DNA of 64,000 nt from an uncultured Actinomycetes bacterium (GTDB lineage Bacteria; Actinomycetota; Thermoleophilia; UBA2241), in NCBI GenBank assembly GCA_963767005.1, contig CAVYCN010000003.1:160001-224000 (forward strand), in the 5' to 3' direction. A program made the position numbers and the translations under genes. Positions 31,255-44,374 of the stretch are shown one piece after another. Below the pieces are notes generated by a model. That model saw only the letters and a program-made list of their open reading frames with translations, made no database searches and was not told the origin of the DNA. Numbering within the stretch: position 1 is the first letter of the stretch; every line of letters starts with the position of its first letter.

Positions 31255-32544
31255 CTAAGCGACGGGCGCCCCGGTCTCATGCAGCAGACTCGCCGCCCGC
31301 ACCCCGACGCCCGCCCTCACGAGCTGCTCGGCGGTGCGGTTCACGGCGTCGTGCTTGTCGAGGTAGTTACCCTCGAGCGCCGGCATGATCCCGTCGGCCA
31401 GCGCCGCCTCGCGGGCGACGAAGTAGTCGAAGATGTCGCTCGGATGGTCGCGGCCGACCTCGACCGCGGGCTCGCCGCCCTCGTGCTTCGCTGAGATGTT
31501 CGGCACGCTCGCCGCGGCCCGTACGACATCGTCGCGCCGGTCGTAGGGCTGGCGCACGATCGAGCGGTACGCCTCGGTCACGTGGTGCTCGAAGCGAACG
31601 GCGTCGGTCAGGCCGAGCGCGGCCCGCGCCGCCGACGACGCCTCGATGGTGGCGACGTCGGCCGAGTTCGACAGGTTGAGGCCGGCGAGGCTGGTCGAGC
31701 CGTCGTCGGCGGCCAGCAGCCGCGCGCCCATGAGCAGCCACAGCATCGCGTAAGGGTTGTCGACGCCCATGAACACCGAGATCTTGAACTCGTTCTCGAC
31801 CCCGAGCTTGCGCAGCAGCAGGCCGACGAGGACCGTGCCGAGGTTGACGTTGAGCACCTGGCGGATGCCGTAGCCGGTGAGGTAGTGCAGGTACTCGTCG
31901 GCCCACTTGAGCGGGTAGTCGTTGGGCTCGCCGATGCCGCCGAAGTAGCCGGTGATGGTGTCGGGTCCGCCGAGCATGACGTTGCTGCCGTCGATGCCGC
32001 GCGTGTCGAGGGTCTCGACGTGCGAGGCCCCCACGATCTGCATGGCGGCCGCCACGGCCAGCAGGTCGCCGTCGGGGCCGGCCTGCTCGGCCATGGCGCG
32101 CACACGGATGAAGCGGCCGGGCATGAGCTCGCGGCGCTCGATCGCCCGGCGCGCCTCGGTCATGAGCCACGGGAAGTACTGCAGCGCGCTGATCTCGAGG
32201 GTCACCGCCCGGTCTTCGTCGGGCGGTGCATCGGCGGCTCCGCCCAGGACGCGGCGGCGGTACTCGGCCAGCGACACGAACGCGCCGCGGTCGCGCTGCT
32301 CGGTGAGCCAGGCCAGGTCGTCGAGGTAAGGCGACCCCTCGGCCCGCAGGCGCTCGAGCCGTGTCTCGAGGCGGCCGTTCTCGGCCGCCGCCCGGTTGAT
32401 GGCCGCCACGCCCCCGTACCTGTCGACCAGGTCGAGCAGAGCGTCGACGAGCGGGTTGTCGTCGGCGGTCAGGGCGGCGTTCACGGCGGCGACGTCGGCC
32501 GGCGCGAGCGCGAGCCTGCGACGCAGTACGGATCGGCCCGTCAT
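31255..32544 (-). CDS. Hypothetical enzyme-like protein (429 aa)
   Basis: GGAGGAGG RBS; strong GC3 codon bias; motif-like blocks TLEISALQYFPW, GYFGGIG, KISVFMG, EHHVTE, AKHEGG; no family recognised. Confidence 0.85.
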   Translation of the reverse strand: MTGRSVLRRRLALAPADVAAVNAALTADDNPLVDALLDLVDRYGGVAAINRAAAENGRLETRLERLRAEGSPYLDDLAWLTEQRDRGAFVSLAEYRRRVLGGAADAPPDEDRAVTLEISALQYFPWLMTEARRAIERRELMPGRFIRVRAMAEQAGPDGDLLAVAAAMQIVGASHVETLDTRGIDGSNVMLGGPDTITGYFGGIGEPNDYPLKWADEYLHYLTGYGIRQVLNVNLGTVLVGLLLRKLGVENEFKISVFMGVDNPYAMLWLLMGARLLAADDGSTSLAGLNLSNSADVATIEASSAARAALGLTDAVRFEHHVTEAYRSIVRQPYDRRDDVVRAAASVPNISAKHEGGEPAVEVGRDHPSDIFDYFVAREAALADGIMPALEGNYLDKHDAVNRTAEQLVRAGVGVRAASLLHETGAPVA

Positions 32545-32640
32545 GGCCCCTCCTCCCGGCCCCGCCTGGTCGACGGCCGGTGCCGCACCGGCCGGACGCC
32601 GGGCCGGGGTCGTTGCGATGGCACGTGCAGTCCGCGACAC

Positions 32641-35854: not shown

Positions 35855-37420
<1,566 letters not shown>

Positions 37421-37643: not shown

Positions 37644-38576
37644 TCACCCTCCTCTGCTCGTGGTCGCCGACGGCTGCGCGTGCTCGGAGACGGCGTCGAG
37701 CACGGTCGCCATGACGGCCTTCACGGTCTTGTCGATGTTGTCGTTCTCGACGACGGCCACGCCCTGCTTGTCGGCCTGGGCGAGGATGTAGTCCTGGATC
37801 TTGCGGATCTTGGCGAAACCCTGGATGTAGCGGCGCAGCGGCCGGATGCCGTCGGTCTCCCACTCGCGCACGTAGAAGTGGCTGCGGTGACGCTCGGCGT
37901 CGCTGATGGCGACCACCATCTCGACCACGACCGCATCGTGCCAGCGGCTGCGGTCGAGGAATCCGGGCACGAGGTGCACGCCCTCGATGATGGTGCGCTG
38001 CCCCTCGGTGATGGCGCGATCGACCACGGCGTTGACGCCCACCGCGATGCTCTTGGCCTGCTCGATGAAGCCGGCCTCGTCGGCGTCGGTCCAGTCGTAC
38101 AGTGGGATACGCAGGCCGGCGGCCGCGTCGAACGACGAGTACTGGATCTCGGGCATGAGGTCGGGCGCGAAGAAGGCGCGCATGACCTGCCGCACGGTGT
38201 CGGTCGAGACCACCCGCGAGATGCCGAGGCGGTGGGCGATCTGCGTGGCAAGCGTGCTCTTGCCCACGCCCGTGGTGCCGCCGACCAGGATGACGAGCGG
38301 CCGGGCCAGCATGGTGAGGCTCTGCCACTTGCGAAAGCGGGCGATGGTCGCGCGGCCGTCGGCCTCGCCCAGCACCGCGCTCGCGATCTCTTCGAGGCCG
38401 CGCAGCGTGATCGTGCCCTGCCGGCTGTCGTGGAGCCGCTCGCCGACCGCCGCGGCGATCTGGTAGGAACGCTCGGGCGACAGGCCGGTCGCCATCAGCG
38501 CCTGTGCCATGAGCCCCTTCGAGTAGGGCAGCGCCGGGTCGCGACTGACGACCACCATCTCGACGTCGTCGGTCAC
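37644..38576 (-). CDS. 2-phosphoglycerate kinase (archaeal type)
   Basis: [12 protein letters not shown]-cone-like start, [13 protein letters not shown]-loop, [27 protein letters not shown]. Confidence 0.88.
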
Positions 38577-40030
38577 GATCGCTGCCTCGCTGCGTAGCGG
38601 CGCTGTGCGGTGTCGACGAGCCCGTCGACGACGGCCGTGAGGTCGCGGCCGTCGACCGCGACGGGCTCGTTGTCGCAGAAGACGAGCTCCTTGCCCAGGC
38701 GCGCCGCGGCCTCGGCAACGACGTCGACGGCCGCCGCCTTGATCTCGGTCAGGAACACGTCGGCCCGGTCGGCGGCGGCGGCCACGGCGTCGCGCAGGGC
38801 CGCCCGTCCGGCGAGGTCGGTCGAGACGAGCGTCACGTCGGCCTCGTGCGCGTCGCGCAGGTGGTCGGCGAGTAGATCGGCGCTCGCGGGGGTCGCCGTC
38901 GAAAAGAACGCCACGCGGCGCCCGGCGACAGAGGCGACGGGTCGCGGGCGAAGCACGGTCGGGATGAGGTCGATGTCCGGGTTCACGTCGGTCACGGCGG
39001 AACGCAACGCGTCGATACGCGCAGCGTCGCAGAACGGTGGTTCGCACATCGTGAGGAAGAGTGCGTCGGAGATGAGCATTCGGTACGTACCCAGATAGCC
39101 CGTTATGTACTCCGGCGGCTGCATGGCCGAGGCCACGCAGACGACGGCTTGCGCCTGCACCGGCGGTATCGCCGAGCCGCTGCCCTCCCAGATGACCGCC
39201 GCGGCCGGCATGTCGTCGACCAGCTCGAGCGCGGCTCCCACCGTGTCGAGCACCGAGGCGCCGGCCATGCCGCCGCCGCAGCGCCGGCAGCCCACCGTGG
39301 TGACCCCGGTGAGCACGGCATCCTCGAGGTAGTCCGAGGCCGCGTGCAGCCCCCGCCGCGACACCGCGAGCAGATCCGCGGCCCCCAGCCGGGCGCCGCC
39401 GGAGACCACCTGCGGCGCCGCCGGCCCACCGCGCCCCATCGCCACGATCACCACCCGTTCGCGCCCGAACCGGTCGCCGAGCCGGCGTCCGAAGAAGCCG
39501 CTGACGGCCGTCTTTCCGACCCGTTTGCCCGTCCCTATGATCGCAAGCGACGGTTTGCTGGAGAGTCGGGCTAGAGGCTGGGGCGAGAATTCGAAGTCGG
39601 CTCCGACGTACCGTGCACCCCACGACAGCGTCACGCTGATGAGCTGGAACCGCTCCTGGTAGCCTAGCACCGGCTCGTCGGACACGTCAACGACCACCCT
39701 CGCACCTGTGGCCTCGAGCAGCCCCGCGAGCGCCGCCCGCACCGCCGCGGCCCCGAGGGTCGCGCCGTCCGGCCCGGCGGCGACCGTCGCGACCGGCAGG
39801 CCGTAGAGCTCGTCGAGCGCGCCGGCCTGGACCTCGCGCAGCTTCTCGCCGCCGCCCAGGAACAGCGCCGCGGCGAAGGTGTAGCGCCCGGCCAGGACGC
39901 GCAGCGTGTCGACCACGACCGGCGGGTAGTGCTCGCCGTCGATCAGCGCGATCGCGGTGGCTCGCGCCGCCTCGGTCGCGGGCGCGCCGCCGCCGGTCAC
40001 GCCCGCGCCGCTCCCCGTCGCCCCGTCCAT
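38573..40030 (-). CDS. cpgS: Cyclic 2,3-diphosphoglycerate synthase
   Basis: ALIDGEHYPPV, DVSDEPV, GTGKRVGKTAVS, VAMGRGGP, HAASDYLEDA, GCRRCGGGMAG, TEIKAAAVD. Confidence 0.9.
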   Translation of the reverse strand: MDGATGSGAGVTGGGAPATEAARATAIALIDGEHYPPVVVDTLRVLAGRYTFAAALFLGGGEKLREVQAGALDELYGLPVATVAAGPDGATLGAAAVRAALAGLLEATGARVVVDVSDEPVLGYQERFQLISVTLSWGARYVGADFEFSPQPLARLSSKPSLAIIGTGKRVGKTAVSGFFGRRLGDRFGRERVVIVAMGRGGPAAPQVVSGGARLGAADLLAVSRRGLHAASDYLEDAVLTGVTTVGCRRCGGGMAGASVLDTVGAALELVDDMPAAAVIWEGSGSAIPPVQAQAVVCVASAMQPPEYITGYLGTYRMLISDALFLTMCEPPFCDAARIDALRSAVTDVNPDIDLIPTVLRPRPVASVAGRRVAFFSTATPASADLLADHLRDAHEADVTLVSTDLAGRAALRDAVAAAADRADVFLTEIKAAAVDVVAEAAARLGKELVFCDNEPVAVDGRDLTAVVDGLVDTAQRRYAARQRS

Positions 40031-40050: not shown

Positions 40051-40839
40051 CTAGGTCTGCAGCCGGCGCTCGTCGGGCCGGCCGGCGAAGCGCTCGTAGT
40101 GCAGGGTCGAGGGCGAGAACTCGATGATCTTCTCACTGCCGTGGAACGGGTACTTGCGCTCGACCCGGACGTGGTCGTCGTCGATCGTCACGATGTTGTA
40201 GCAGGGCCGCGTGTCGCCGCGCAGGCGCAGCGAGCAGACGGTCCCGGCGTTCACCACGAACATGTTCTCGAAGTGCCAGGCGTGCGGCACGTGCTTGTGG
40301 CCCGACAGCACGAGGTTGACGTTGCAGCGCTGCAGCACCTCGAGCGTGTCTCCGGCATCGTAGACCATGTTGCGCTCGCGCCCGGTGCCCGGGATCGGCA
40401 GCAGGTGGTGGTGCAGCATGAAGATGCGAAAGCGGGCCGGCGTCGAGAACTGCTCCTCGAGCCAGGCGTAGCGCGAGCGGCCGATGGTGCCGTAGTCGAG
40501 GTCGGGCTGTGTCGAGTCGACGCCGACGATCGAGATCTCGCCGGTGTGCAGCACCACGCCGCGCGGCCCGAACAGATGCTCGAAGTGGACGTAGCCGACG
40601 TTGCGCGAGTCGTGGTTGCCGGGGATGACGAGCACGTGCGGGCACTCGAGGCGGTCGAGGTAGTCCTTGGCCACCTGGTACTCCTGCTTGAAGCCCTCGT
40701 TCGTGAGGTCGCCGGTGACGGCCACGACGTCGGGTCTGAGCTCGTTCAGCTCGACGACCGCACGATCCATGAGATTGGCCACGAAGTACGGCGAGCCGGC
40801 GTGGAAGTCGGACACGTGAGCGAGCACGAAGGGGGCCAT
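40051..40839 (-). CDS. Calcineurin-like metallophosphoesterase (Icc/CpdA-like)
   Basis: SDFH, TGDL, PGNHD, HHH, SGHKH motifs. Confidence 0.93.
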   Translation of the reverse strand: MAPFVLAHVSDFHAGSPYFVANLMDRAVVELNELRPDVVAVTGDLTNEGFKQEYQVAKDYLDRLECPHVLVIPGNHDSRNVGYVHFEHLFGPRGVVLHTGEISIVGVDSTQPDLDYGTIGRSRYAWLEEQFSTPARFRIFMLHHHLLPIPGTGRERNMVYDAGDTLEVLQRCNVNLVLSGHKHVPHAWHFENMFVVNAGTVCSLRLRGDTRPCYNIVTIDDDHVRVERKYPFHGSEKIIEFSPSTLHYERFAGRPDERRLQT

Positions 40840-40852
40840 GAGGCGTCCTTTC

Positions 40853-43042
40853 CTACTCCACGACGACGACGCGCACGCCGCCCTGCTTGTCGCGGAGCGA
40901 GAACGTGGTCTGGTTGCCGTCGCGGCGGAACCGCAGGCTCAGGCGGGAACGGCCGACGCTCAGGTTGCTGAGCGTGACCTCGGACAGCCACTTCGGCAGC
41001 AACGGGTTGTGCACGTAGAGCGCGTTCTCGGCGGCGCTCGCGTAGAGCCCGAGCATGGCCTGCAGCATGAGGAACGGGGCGCCGGCGGCCGGCGCGTCGG
41101 GCGAGCACGCCATGGGGTAGGCGACGGGGCGGTTCACGGCCTGCCGGGTGAAGCCGCAGATGAACTCGGGCAGGCGCTCGTACTGCTGGTCGAGGGCGGC
41201 GTCGAAGAGCGCGCCGGCCAGGCGGTTGGCCTCCTGGTCGAAGCCGTGCTTCTTGAGGCCGTTCACGATGAGCGCGTTGTCGAACGGCCAGACGCTGCCG
41301 TTGTAGAGGCTCATGGGGCTGTAGCCGACCGCCGACTTGGCCATCGTGCGTACGCCCCAGCCCGAGAACAGGTCGGGCGACAGCAGGCGCTCGGCCACCG
41401 GCGCCACATGCTCCTCGGAGAGGATGCGCGACCACAGGCAGTGGCCGGCGGTCGAGACGATCGTCTTCACCTGACGCTTGTCGGCGTCGAGGGCCATCGC
41501 CACGTAGCCCTCGTCGTCCATCCAGAAGCGGTCGTTGAAGCGCAGCTTGAGCGCCTGCGACTCGGCCTGCAGGCGCTCCGACAGCTCGACGTCGGCGAGG
41601 TGCCCGAACAGGCTCGCGAGACGGCGCTTGGCGTAGTAGACGTAGGCCTGCGACTCGGCGAGGGCGATGGGGCCCTGCGCGACGCTGCCGTCGGTGTGCA
41701 CCACCGCGTCGTGGGCGTCGCGCCAGCCCTGGTTGACGAGCCCGGCCCGCGAGCGCCGCCGGTACTCGACGAAGCCGTCGCCGTCGAGGTCGCCGTACTG
41801 GTCGATCCAGCGCAGGGCGGCCTCGATGGGGCCACGGAGCTGCTCGAAGGCCTCGAGGTCGCCGGTCCACATGGCGACCTCGCAGACGAGCAGCAGGTAC
41901 AGGGCCGTCGTGTCGACCGCGCCGTAGTAGGGGGTGTGTGGGATCGCCTTGACGGCGGCGAGCTCGCCACGGCGCAGCTCGTGCATGATCTTGCCGGGCT
42001 CCTCCTCGCGAAAGACGCTGTCGACGCGGCCCTGCAGCCCGGTGAGCAGGCGCACGCAGTCGATCGCGGGACGCGGGTCCAGCATGAGGGTCTCGAGGCT
42101 GGCGATGATCGCGTCGCGGCCGAACGGCGCCACGAACCAGGGCACGGCCGCCGCGAAGGTCCGGCCCCCCGACGTGTCGGTCATGAGCATGCGCAGGTCG
42201 GCCTGGCCGCGGCGCAGCACCCGGGTGACCTCTTCGGAGTCGGTGAAGATGCCAGTCGCGCCGGCGAACCAGCGCTCGTAGTCGCGCCGCATCTCGGTCA
42301 GGCGCTCGGTGAAGTCGCCGCCGGCCGACAGAGCCGGCCCGTCGGGCACCGACACCTCGATCGAGAACCGCAGCACCTTGCGCTCGCGCGGCGCGAGGTT
42401 CACGCGAAAGCGTGCCGTGCCGCCCTCGAGCCTGGCCGGCGCCTGCTCGAAACGCACGATCGTCTTGCGCAGCACCTCGTCGAGGCCCAGGTAGGCCAGC
42501 GTGAGCTTGTCGCCTTCGGCCTTGGGGGCGAAGCGAGTGCCGCGCTTGTGGCGGCGCATGCCACGCACCTCGAACATGTCGCGAAAGTCGGCGTCGAACC
42601 TGAGCTCCACGTCGACCTCGACCGGCGCCGCGTGGTAGTTCTTGACGCGCAGCAGCTCGTAGACGCGGTCGGCGACCACGCGCGTGCGCCGCAGGTGCAC
42701 CGAGGTCTGGGGGATCGCCTCGCCGCGCGCGCCCTTGATGGCGAGATTCGTGAACTCGGCCGACGAGACGTAGTTGCGCTCGGCGGTCGAGGAGAGCAGC
42801 ACCGGCGGCCGGCCGCCGACCGTCATCTCGAGGCGTGAGAGAAAGCGCGTGTCGCGAAAGTAGAGGCCGAGCGGCGAGCCGGCGGCGGCCGGGATCAGCC
42901 CCTCCTCGTCGGTGTACATGAGGAGCTCGTTCTCCATGCTGACGAGGCGGCGGCGGCGCTGCTCGGTCATCACGAAGCGCTCGGCTCCGGTCGTCACGCC
43001 GTCGGCGGCGCCGAGCGCCTCGAAGCGCTCGTCGCCGATCAC
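40853..43042 (-). CDS. Amylo-alpha-1,6-glucosidase / glycogen debranching family protein (start uncertain)
   Basis: GLYFRDTRFLS, PWFVAPFGRD, EEPGKIMHELR, YYGAVDTT, NQGWRD, YNGSVWPFDN. Confidence 0.9.
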   Translation of the reverse strand: MIGDERFEALGAADGVTTGAERFVMTEQRRRRLVSMENELLMYTDEEGLIPAAAGSPLGLYFRDTRFLSRLEMTVGGRPPVLLSSTAERNYVSSAEFTNLAIKGARGEAIPQTSVHLRRTRVVADRVYELLRVKNYHAAPVEVDVELRFDADFRDMFEVRGMRRHKRGTRFAPKAEGDKLTLAYLGLDEVLRKTIVRFEQAPARLEGGTARFRVNLAPRERKVLRFSIEVSVPDGPALSAGGDFTERLTEMRRDYERWFAGATGIFTDSEEVTRVLRRGQADLRMLMTDTSGGRTFAAAVPWFVAPFGRDAIIASLETLMLDPRPAIDCVRLLTGLQGRVDSVFREEEPGKIMHELRRGELAAVKAIPHTPYYGAVDTTALYLLLVCEVAMWTGDLEAFEQLRGPIEAALRWIDQYGDLDGDGFVEYRRRSRAGLVNQGWRDAHDAVVHTDGSVAQGPIALAESQAYVYYAKRRLASLFGHLADVELSERLQAESQALKLRFNDRFWMDDEGYVAMALDADKRQVKTIVSTAGHCLWSRILSEEHVAPVAERLLSPDLFSGWGVRTMAKSAVGYSPMSLYNGSVWPFDNALIVNGLKKHGFDQEANRLAGALFDAALDQQYERLPEFICGFTRQAVNRPVAYPMACSPDAPAAGAPFLMLQAMLGLYASAAENALYVHNPLLPKWLSEVTLSNLSVGRSRLSLRFRRDGNQTTFSLRDKQGGVRVVVVE

Positions 43043-43285: not shown

Positions 43286-44374
43286 TCACGCCCTCGCCGG
43301 CACGGCGAGGGCGCGCTCGATCTCGGCCAGAGGCTCCGACGTGAACACGGGCTCGGCCGCCGTGCGCACGGCGGTGTCGGGGTCCTTGAGGCCGTGACCG
43401 GTGAGCACGCACGTCACCAGCGCCCCGGCCGCGATGCGGCCGTCCTCGCGCGCCTTGCGCAGACCCGCGATCGATGCCGCGCTCGCCGGTTCGCAGAACA
43501 CGCCCTCGGTCGCCGCCACGAGCCGGTAGGCCGCCACGATCTCGTCGTCGGTCACCATATCGATGAAGCCGCCCGAGTCGCGCGCCGCCGCGAGAGCCTC
43601 GTCGCCACGCGCCGGATTGCCGATGCGGATCGCCGTGGCGATCGTCTCGGGAGCATCGATGCGGTGGCCGAGCACGAGCGGTGCCGCGCCCGCCGCCTGA
43701 AAGCCGCACATGACCGGCAGACGGTCCGTCACGCCCGCGTCGCGATACTCGCGGTAGCCCTTCCAGTAGCTCGTGATGTTGCCGGCGTTGCCGACCGGTA
43801 TGCAGTGATACGCGGGCGGCCCGCCGAGCGCGTCGCAGACCTCGAAGGCGCCGGTCTTCTGCCCCTCGATACGGTAGGGGTTGACCGAGTTCACGAGGGC
43901 GACCGGCAGCCGTGCGGCCGCCTCGCGCACGACGTCGAGGGCGACGTCGAAGTTGCCCGGGATCGACACCACATGGGCGCCGTACGCCACCGCCTGGGCG
44001 AGCTTGCCCATGGCGATCTTGCCCTCGGGGATCACGACGATCGCCCTGATGCCGGCCTTGGCCGCGTAGGCCGCCGCCGAGGCGCTCGTGTTGCCGGTAG
44101 AGGCGCAGACGACCGCGCGGAAGCCGTCCTCGATCACCTTGCTGACCGCCATCGTCATGCCGCGGTCCTTGAACGAGCAGGTCGGGTTCAGGCCCTCGAG
44201 CTTCAGGTGGAGCTCCACACCGAGCGCCTCGCCCAGGCGCGGCGCCGGCACGAGCGGCGTGTCGCCCTCGCCGAGAGTGACGATCGGGGTCGCGTCGGTC
44301 ACGGGCAGGTAGCGCCGGTAGCGGGCGATCACGCCGGCGCCACGGCCGGCCGGTCCCGCGGGGCTAGCCGCCAT
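43286..44374 (-). CDS. thrC: Threonine synthase
   Basis: [16 protein letters not shown] lysine, [22 protein letters not shown]. Confidence 0.96.

What the first reader, a model, noticed from the sequence alone, without database searches (positions are those of the whole stretch)
40051..43042. Metallophosphoesterase and glycogen-debranching enzyme in operon with cpgS: candidate cDPG hydrolase and glycogen-to-cDPG module
Seen: GDE, 13 bp, metallophosphoesterase, 20 bp, cpgS, overlap, 2-PGK, each with an SD or translational coupling. Known: Icc/CpdA-like enzymes hydrolyse cyclic phosphodiesters and phosphoanhydrides, and a cDPG-hydrolysing activity has been described in methanogens. Inference: a complete synthesis-and-turnover cycle in which the phosphoesterase opens cDPG, linked to storage-glucan or glycoside hydrolysis.
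Basis: inference. Interest (0 to 1): 0.75.

Follow-up and report, generated by a model that had tools for sequence, protein, structure and literature searches.

The report
cDPG hydrolase candidate, bystander glycosidase
An actinobacterial phosphoesterase gene sits with, and is lost together with, the two genes predicted to make the solute cyclic 2,3-diphosphoglycerate, so it likely encodes the long-unidentified enzyme that breaks this compound down, whereas the neighbouring 'glycogen-debranching' gene is kept or lost separately and is likely unrelated to the pathway.

Summary
The gene order and spacings are exactly as reported (13 bp, 20 bp, 4-base overlap).

The phosphoesterase link holds. 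In 301 phylum genomes, cpgS and this subfamily co-occur in 173; 5 have only one of them and 123 have neither. The phosphoesterase-cpgS-pgk2 block is deleted as a unit in at least three lineages. A tandem form lies beside cpgS/pgk2 in Thermococcus-like loci, in two arrangements. Methanopyrus and Methanobrevibacter carry unlinked members. All metal motifs are intact and conserved arginines line the active-site loops. cDPG hydrolase is the best reading (0.5); 2,3-DPG phosphatase is the main rival. No activity was tested.

The glycogen half fails. The 'GDE' is a GH176 protein and its presence barely tracks cpgS (phi 0.09). It stays when the triad is deleted and is lost while the triad stays. No glycogen branching enzyme, phosphorylase, GH13 or GH57 was found in the genome. 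In this family the GH176 has lost three glucose-binding residues that are invariant in 56 relatives, yet remains under purifying selection.

The scan reported the phosphoesterase idea before on other DNA. The separation and remodelling of the GH176 did not appear in the six notes returned.

The parts
40051..40839 (-). Calcineurin-like metallophosphoesterase of a distinct subfamily; candidate cDPG hydrolase
   Evidence: PF00149. Metal motifs at D11/H13, D44, N75/H76, H143-145, H181/H183. Model pLDDT 94.4 with GpdQ/Rv0805 as top folds, TM 0.66. Co-occurrence with cpgS.
38573..40030 (-). cpgS, cyclic 2,3-diphosphoglycerate synthetase homologue
   Evidence: 8ORK E 3e-96 over residues 26-462. K169/R170 and E62/K63 match the 2,3-DPG-contacting K145/R146 and E45/K46 of PMC10690619.
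37644..38576 (-). pgk2, 2-phosphoglycerate kinase homologue
   Evidence: PRK04220 288.5 bits (cut-off 343) and PRK12337 288.2 bits. Walker A at residue 99. Start overlaps the cpgS stop.
40853..43042 (-). GH176 glycoside hydrolase (annotated GDE) with a remodelled -1 subsite; a positional neighbour, not part of the cDPG unit
   Evidence: 7VMA E 8.5e-84. Residue survey and tree. Independent loss. Start codon uncertain.
43286..44374 (-). thrC, upstream flank (lysA-hom-thrC run), context only
   Evidence: PF00291; recurring upstream neighbour.
35855..37420 (-). rho, downstream flank, context only
   Evidence: PF07497; marks the far edge of the block deletions.

Best explanation
The phosphoesterase, cpgS and pgk2 genes form a three-gene unit that is inherited and deleted together; pgk2 and cpgS are predicted to turn 2-phosphoglycerate into cyclic 2,3-diphosphoglycerate (cDPG), and the phosphoesterase likely opens the cDPG ring back to 2,3-DPG, while the upstream GH176 gene is kept or lost separately and likely has no role in this cycle. 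Mechanism (inferred): the two-metal centre activates water to attack one phosphorus of the cyclic phosphoanhydride, and the subfamily's conserved basic residues (R79, R154, R156, K182, R205, R207) hold the small poly-anionic substrate. The result would be a reversible carbon and phosphate store. Shown here: gene order, intact motifs, fold, co-distribution, joint loss and independence of the GH176. Inferred: every activity, co-transcription, and that these bacteria make cDPG at all.
For: Co-occurrence in the same 301 genomes: cpgS and MPE both 173, cpgS only 4, MPE only 1, neither 123, phi 0.97. MPE lies just upstream of cpgS in 49 of 60 family-diverse cpgS loci, one gene away in 1, absent from the locus in 10. 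In family f19 pgk2 is present in 23 of 23 genomes but away from cpgS in the loci examined, while MPE stays with cpgS. Complete genome G091 has a pgk2-like gene but neither cpgS nor this MPE. Block loss with both flanks kept: 5 of 7 f14 loci and G200, and 8 of the 10 MPE-less, GH176-bearing genomes of the window's family, the other 2 cut by contig ends; cpgS and pgk2 were not found genome-wide in the 5 of these tested. A different order, cpgS(+) MPE(-) pgk2(+), occurs in G235. A tandem MPE sits beside pgk2/cpgS in 9 of 12 loci at least 67% identical to the Thermococcus barophilus protein, in two arrangements. Members exist in Methanobrevibacter and Methanopyrus clusters. Basic residues in 44 distant rows: R154 34, R156 37, R/K205 42, R207 34; these four are not matched in GpdQ. 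Superfamily precedent: rat ADPRibase-Mn cleaves the phosphoanhydride of cyclic ADP-ribose (PMC3407115). The genome has GpmI and no dPGM over cut-off, so 2,3-DPG is not needed as a mutase cofactor.
Against: No assay. Co-occurrence is inflated by shared ancestry and by adjacency (one deletion removes neighbours whatever their function), and no species tree was used to count events. MPE tracks pgk2 almost as well (phi 0.94), and L171, L175 and L178 link it to pgk2 with no cpgS in the flank. None of 14 Methanobrevibacter-like loci, nor the Methanopyrus-like locus L196, has cpgS or pgk2 in the flank, though many flanks are short. The review PMC1224877 describes a membrane-bound hydrolase in M. thermautotrophicus and a reversible cDPGS in M. 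fervidus; this MPE has no membrane segment (peak hydropathy 1.07). G117 has an MPE without cpgS or pgk2. Families f19, f30 and f32 carry unlinked extra copies. A Methanophagales-cluster member lies between a phosphate-binding-type protein and an ABC permease. An orthologue in M. thermautotrophicus or M. fervidus was not shown.
Confidence: 0.5

Rival explanations
1. The MPE is a 2,3-DPG phosphatase that returns 2,3-DPG to 3- or 2-phosphoglycerate; the ring is opened by reverse cDPGS or another enzyme.
For: pgk2/MPE phi 0.94. pgk2-CBS-MPE or pgk2-MPE without cpgS in the flank in L171, L175, L178. M. fervidus cDPGS is reversible (PMC1224877). No dPGM to remove 2,3-DPG. The same basic pocket would fit 2,3-DPG.
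Against: In f19 MPE stays with cpgS when pgk2 moves. G091 has a pgk2-like gene without MPE. The closest solved relatives are diesterases, GpdQ and Rv0805.
Confidence: 0.22
2. The triad is a real unit, but the MPE acts on another substrate (a side product, a cyclic nucleotide, or a different product of the bacterial cpgS/pgk2 pair), or serves general phosphate scavenging.
For: cDPG is reported only from methanogens (PMC10690619). pgk2 scores below its cut-off. GNH-histidine enzymes commonly cleave 2',3'-cAMP (PMC3407115). Unlinked paralogues and a phosphate-transport context exist.
Against: cpgS keeps the 2,3-DPG-contacting residues. The linkage recurs in bacteria and archaea in different gene orders. 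CpdA score is 50.9 bits against a cut-off of 225.
Confidence: 0.18
3. First reader's module: the GH176 feeds carbon from glycogen or a glycoside (for example a glycerate glucoside) into cDPG synthesis.
For: 13-bp spacing; GH176 directly upstream of MPE in 62 of 80 genomes of the family; in the cpgS locus in 16 of 60 diverse loci, and directly before cpgS in 2. The family includes an alpha-1,2-glucosidase.
Against: phi 0.09 for any GH176 and 0.13 for close copies. f14 has GH176 in 16 of 17 and cpgS in 0 of 17; f21 has cpgS in 21 of 21 and GH176 in 0 of 21. GH176 stays when the triad is deleted and is missing from the locus in G331 and G352 with the triad intact. No glgB, phosphorylase, GH13 or GH57 match, and glgC below cut-off, in a 100%-complete genome. 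The -1 subsite is altered.
Confidence: 0.08

Closest known systems
cDPG pathway of Methanothermus fervidus (2-PG kinase + cDPG synthetase, PDB 8ORK/8ORU)
   Same: Full-length cpgS homologue with substrate-contacting residues kept; 2-PG kinase homologue.
   Different: Bacterial host; genes coupled with an MPE; cDPG itself not shown here, and reported only from methanogens (PMC10690619).
cDPG hydrolase activity of Methanothermobacter thermautotrophicus (Sastry 1992; van Alebeek 1994; seen only as cited in PMC1224877)
   Same: Proposed reaction, cDPG to 2,3-DPG.
   Different: No gene named in the papers searched; one activity is membrane-bound whereas this MPE has no membrane segment; orthology with that organism not shown.
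GpdQ (Enterobacter) / Rv0805 (Icc/CpdA-like) phosphodiesterases
   Same: Fold (TM 0.66) and the five metal-binding motifs including the GNH histidine.
   Different: 22-24% identity; CpdA model far below cut-off; subfamily-specific GRER loop and R205/R207; tied to cpgS/pgk2.
ADPRibase-Mn (PMC3407115)
   Same: Same superfamily; the rat enzyme cleaves a cyclic phosphoanhydride (cADPR).
   Different: Nucleotide substrates; distant (fold rank 47, 16% identity); the zebrafish enzyme barely acts on cADPR.
GH176: TgAMY (PDB 7VMA, PMC9142091) and Arthrobacter A8F5 alpha-1,2-glucosidase (bioRxiv 10.64898/2026.07.01.735942)
   Same: Two-domain architecture; catalytic acid (D442), base (E626), fixer (D310) and +1 His-Glu pair kept.
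   Different: Equivalents of H566, Q634 and W636 are Y580, D649 and P651; substrate unknown; no glycogen pathway found in the genome.

Membership tests
Calcineurin-like metallophosphoesterase superfamily | Five metal-binding motifs (DxH, GD, GNH, H, GHxH) | tested here: met
   Motifs at 11-13, 43-44, 74-76, 143-145, 180-183, near-invariant in alignment A3.
Calcineurin-like metallophosphoesterase superfamily | Fold | tested here: met
   Model pLDDT 94.4; GpdQ and Rv0805 top hits, E about 1e-14.
CpdA/Icc cAMP phosphodiesterase (PRK11148) | Score above curated cut-off | tested here: not met
   50.9 bits against 225.
cDPG hydrolase (M. thermautotrophicus activity) | Hydrolyses cDPG to 2,3-DPG | not testable with these tools
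   Needs an assay.
cDPG hydrolase (M. thermautotrophicus activity) | Present in cDPG-producing methanogen lineages | tested here: inconclusive
   Members in Methanobrevibacter and Methanopyrus clusters; Methanothermobacter and Methanothermus not seen among the named hits listed.
cDPG hydrolase (M. thermautotrophicus activity) | Membrane-bound (one reported activity) | tested here: not met
   No hydrophobic segment, peak 1.07; peripheral binding not excluded, and the review also notes hydrolysis in soluble extracts.
cDPG synthetase | Full-length homology with P-loop and 2,3-DPG-contacting residues | tested here: met
   E 3e-96; K169/R170 and E62/K63.
cDPG synthetase | ATP-dependent cyclisation of 2,3-DPG | not testable with these tools
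   Needs an assay.
2-phosphoglycerate kinase (PRK04220) | Score above curated cut-off | tested here: not met
   288.5 bits against 343, over model positions 5-298 of 306; best family, single copy. It works like a 2-PGK by context; formal membership not met.
GH176 | Homology to TgAMY with catalytic acid, base and fixer | tested here: met
   E 8.5e-84; D442, E626, D310 mapped through the 7VMA alignment and motif spacing. The A8F5 sequence itself was not aligned.
GH176 | -1 subsite glucose contacts (A8F5 H566, Q634, W636) | tested here: not met
   Y580, D649, P651; altered in all 29 sequences of this clade, invariant in the other 56 of 85.
Glycogen debranching enzyme (physiological role) | Glycogen synthesis and breakdown genes in the genome | tested here: not met
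   No TIGR01515, PF00343, PF03065 or PF00128 match; TIGR02091 best 136 bits against 425; the controls rang.

The most novel reading that the evidence does not exclude
This phosphoesterase subfamily is the cDPG hydrolase known only as an activity since 1992. It is shared by actinobacteria, Thermococcales and methanogens, and more than half of the sampled genomes of this actinobacterial phylum run a full cDPG synthesis-and-turnover cycle as a carbon and phosphate store. Beside it, one family maintains a GH176 with a rebuilt sugar pocket, which would be a new specificity or a conserved non-catalytic protein.
Probability: 0.45. Interest if true: 0.8.

Novelty: new variant of a known kind. Interest (0 to 1): 0.6.

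Why it matters
The degradative arm of cDPG metabolism has no gene in the papers I could search. This subfamily gives one small soluble protein to assay, and cDPG can now be made enzymatically (PMC12136491). A positive result would close the cycle, explain cDPG as a mobilisable store, and extend a 'methanogen-only' solute to 177 of 301 sampled genomes of a bacterial phylum. Removing the hydrolase could also help cDPG production. The negative half matters for annotation: the 'glycogen debranching' label on this GH176 is carried over from one questioned assignment.

Tried and rejected
Single-sequence fold failed (pLDDT 38.6); the alignment-based model was used instead. One search used an out-of-frame query and is discarded; one search is the valid search. 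No RNA holder was listed, so co-transcription is untested. The promoter/terminator scan found nothing above shuffles. cpgS has no Pfam or NCBIfam model in these copies, so the named control genomes could not be tested for it. Adjacency could not separate cDPG hydrolase from 2,3-DPG phosphatase, because both one-sided linkages occur. Searching for the M. thermautotrophicus or M. fervidus orthologue gave no such named hit among the 120 listed in each. A GT4-trehalose link for GH176: otsA and treT lay beside the GT4 only in this genome's locus among the loci held, so it was not pursued. Matussek 1998 was not held. No complex prediction was run, since no binding is claimed. Rejected: CpdA cAMP phosphodiesterase; glycogen debrancher; GH176 pseudogene (dN/dS 0.18-0.30, like cpgS 0.20-0.28); 2,3-DPG as dPGM cofactor.
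Full report
OBSERVATION. The minus strand carries lysA-hom-thrC, a 243-bp gap, a 729-aa glycoside hydrolase (43042-40853), 13 bp, a 262-aa metallophosphoesterase (MPE, 40839-40051), 20 bp, cpgS (40030-38573), a GTGA overlap, pgk2 (38576-37644), 223 bp, then rho. cpgS matches M. fervidus cDPG synthetase at E 3e-96 and keeps the residues that contact 2,3-DPG. pgk2 is best matched by PRK04220 but under its cut-off. Close relatives are titled Thermoleophilia or Actinomycetes.

THE PHOSPHOESTERASE TRAVELS WITH cpgS AND pgk2. In 45 MPE-centred loci, cpgS follows in 44 (one cut), pgk2 in 41 (four cut) and the glycosidase precedes in 26. The same 301 genomes of the phylum were searched with each protein: cpgS 177, MPE 174 at E<=1e-20, pgk2 175. 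cpgS/MPE: both 173, cpgS only 4 (one a partial hit), MPE only 1, neither 123, phi 0.97; pgk2/MPE phi 0.94. Kin are not independent, so these are descriptions, not tests. The counts include unpublished genomes G001, G048, G088 and G120. In 60 cpgS loci that I picked to span families, MPE is directly upstream in 49, one gene away in 1 and absent from the locus in 10; the families concerned mostly carry it elsewhere. In f19 the order is MPE-cpgS-glpX or rho, with pgk2 relocated. G235 has another order. G091 has a pgk2-like gene alone and G117 an MPE alone.

OUTSIDE ACTINOBACTERIA. Nearest relatives include tandem two-domain forms named from Thermococcus barophilus, Methanomicrobia/Methanofastidiosa and Asgard archaea, and single forms from Methanobrevibacter, WOR-3, Methanopyri and Methanophagales. 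The metagenome scan kept the best 80 of at least 538 loci. Of 12 loci at least 67% identical to the T. barophilus protein, 9 have pgk2 and/or cpgS adjacent, either upstream on the same strand or convergent; 3 have short flanks. A CBS gene precedes the tandem MPE in the 4 such cases scanned, three Thermococcus-like and L171. L171, L175 and L178 show pgk2 but no cpgS. Fourteen Methanobrevibacter-like loci and the Methanopyri-cluster locus show neither. The 3 of those 14 with full flanks place the MPE after a NAC gene. Taxa of metagenome loci are inferred from identity or cluster names.

THE ENZYME. All five metal motifs are intact. The model (pLDDT 94.4, 84-row alignment) is closest to GpdQ and Rv0805. 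The subfamily has a GRER loop after the His run and conserved R79, K/R182, R/K205 and R207; R154, R156, R205 and R207 are not matched in GpdQ. Their nearness to the metals is inferred from the alignment, not measured on coordinates. A small poly-anionic substrate fits. Rat ADPRibase-Mn shows the fold can open a cyclic phosphoanhydride (PMC3407115). I rate cDPG hydrolase 0.5, 2,3-DPG phosphatase 0.22, another substrate 0.18; a bifunctional enzyme is counted under the first. Against: no assay, a membrane-bound hydrolase and a reversible synthetase in the literature (PMC1224877), unlinked paralogues, and no orthologue shown in the organisms where activity was measured.

THE 'GDE' IS A SEPARABLE GH176. 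Its only PDB relative found is TgAMY, 7VMA, founder of GH176. The preprint 10.64898/2026.07.01.735942 shows a second member is an exo alpha-1,2-glucosidase and states that direct evidence of alpha-1,6 cleavage by TgAMY was not provided. GH176 matches 122 of the 301 genomes: with cpgS 78, cpgS without it 99, it without cpgS 44, phi 0.09. In 5 of 7 f14 loci and in G200, thrC...GH176...rho persists without the 3.2-kb triad; one f14 locus is cut and one shows no rho hit. In 80 genomes of the window's family, 74 have the close GH176 and 66 the MPE; 62 are adjacent, 2 split by contig ends, 10 GH176 only, 2 MPE only, 4 neither. Eight of the 10 run GH176 straight into rho, and both MPE-only loci have the intact triad without GH176. 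Those eight may be a single loss. No branching enzyme, glucan phosphorylase, GH13 or GH57 was found in the genome, and glgC is under cut-off. The tight spacing is best read as old gene order between thrC and rho, where tal, apgM, thrB, glpX, sppA and a GT4 also come and go.

A REMODELLED ACTIVE SITE. Of 85 unique GH176 sequences held, 56 are identical at 13 active-site positions. The other 29, including the window's, form one clade (quick tree, SH-aLRT 100, stem 0.46; midpoint root only). All 29 replace the equivalents of H566, Q634 and W636; 10 also change the fixer Asp. Acid and base are kept in 28 and 29 of 29. One of the 56 is from unpublished G088. Family-wide loci agree. dN/dS is 0.18-0.30 against 8 close loci, like cpgS (dS is probably underestimated in GC-rich DNA). 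The protein is therefore maintained but likely no longer a plain glucosidase: I judge loss of glucoside hydrolysis or a changed sugar more likely than retention. The genome's second GH176 on contig C14 is canonical.

LITERATURE. Searches of the open-access library returned no paper naming a cDPG hydrolase gene or bacterial cDPG; subscription papers are not covered. Seen: passages of PMC10690619, PMC1224877, PMC12136491, PMC7554672, PMC5663688 and PMC3407115; references only of PMC4890121; abstract and outline of PMC9142091; parts 1-4 of 7 of the GH176 preprint. No supplements were read; the preprint's are closed and could hold cluster assignments for this clade. Sastry 1992 and van Alebeek 1994 were seen only as cited. 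Six earlier scan notes propose the same phosphoesterase reading on other DNA; they are not counted as support.

VERDICT. Observation confirmed; interpretation half right. The real object is a three-gene cDPG unit with a strong, cheaply testable hydrolase candidate. The glycogen link should be dropped. Interest 0.6; new variant of a known kind.

Noticed in passing
window 40853-43042 and L001-L045, L291-L331: Family-wide GH176 clade with a rebuilt -1 subsite under purifying selection: a candidate new specificity or conserved pseudoenzyme, kept even where the cDPG triad is lost.
   Followed up: partly
L290:7419-8474 (G000:C3:270418-271473); L273, L274, L276-L278, L285: A GT4 glycosyltransferase family lies beside canonical GH176 in several lineages; this genome's orthologue lies next to otsA and treT, hinting at a glucosylated-trehalose-type solute made by GT4 and cleaved by GH176.
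   Followed up: partly
L219:4809-7720: A Methanophagales-cluster member of the MPE subfamily sits between a phosphate-binding-type protein and an ABC permease gene.
   Followed up: no
L157, L158, L166, L171 just upstream of the MPE: A CBS-pair gene precedes the tandem MPE in archaeal loci, a possible energy-sensing regulator; the second MPE domain has degenerate metal motifs in many rows of alignment A1.
   Followed up: partly
L139-L145: Second and third MPE copies in families f19, f30 and f32; three f19 copies lie beside a SAM hydroxide adenosyltransferase gene.
   Followed up: partly
L147-L150: Relocated pgk2 in family f19 is flanked by DUF4126 and YtxH-like genes in the loci scanned.
   Followed up: no
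L330:5122-7205 (G330): MPE and cpgS are in pieces while pgk2 is whole, but rho and thyX are also split, so assembly error is as likely as decay.
   Followed up: no
window 35855-37420: Rho has a long low-complexity N-terminal extension of about 150 aa.
   Followed up: no
window 31255-32640: 461-aa ORF with no Pfam match between a cyclase/arylformamidase-like gene and what looks like a polysaccharide-deacetylase-like gene (label from recall).
   Followed up: no
L003: Record titled 'uncultured archaeon' carries this actinobacterial locus at 80-93% identity for the four genes; the title is probably wrong.
   Followed up: no
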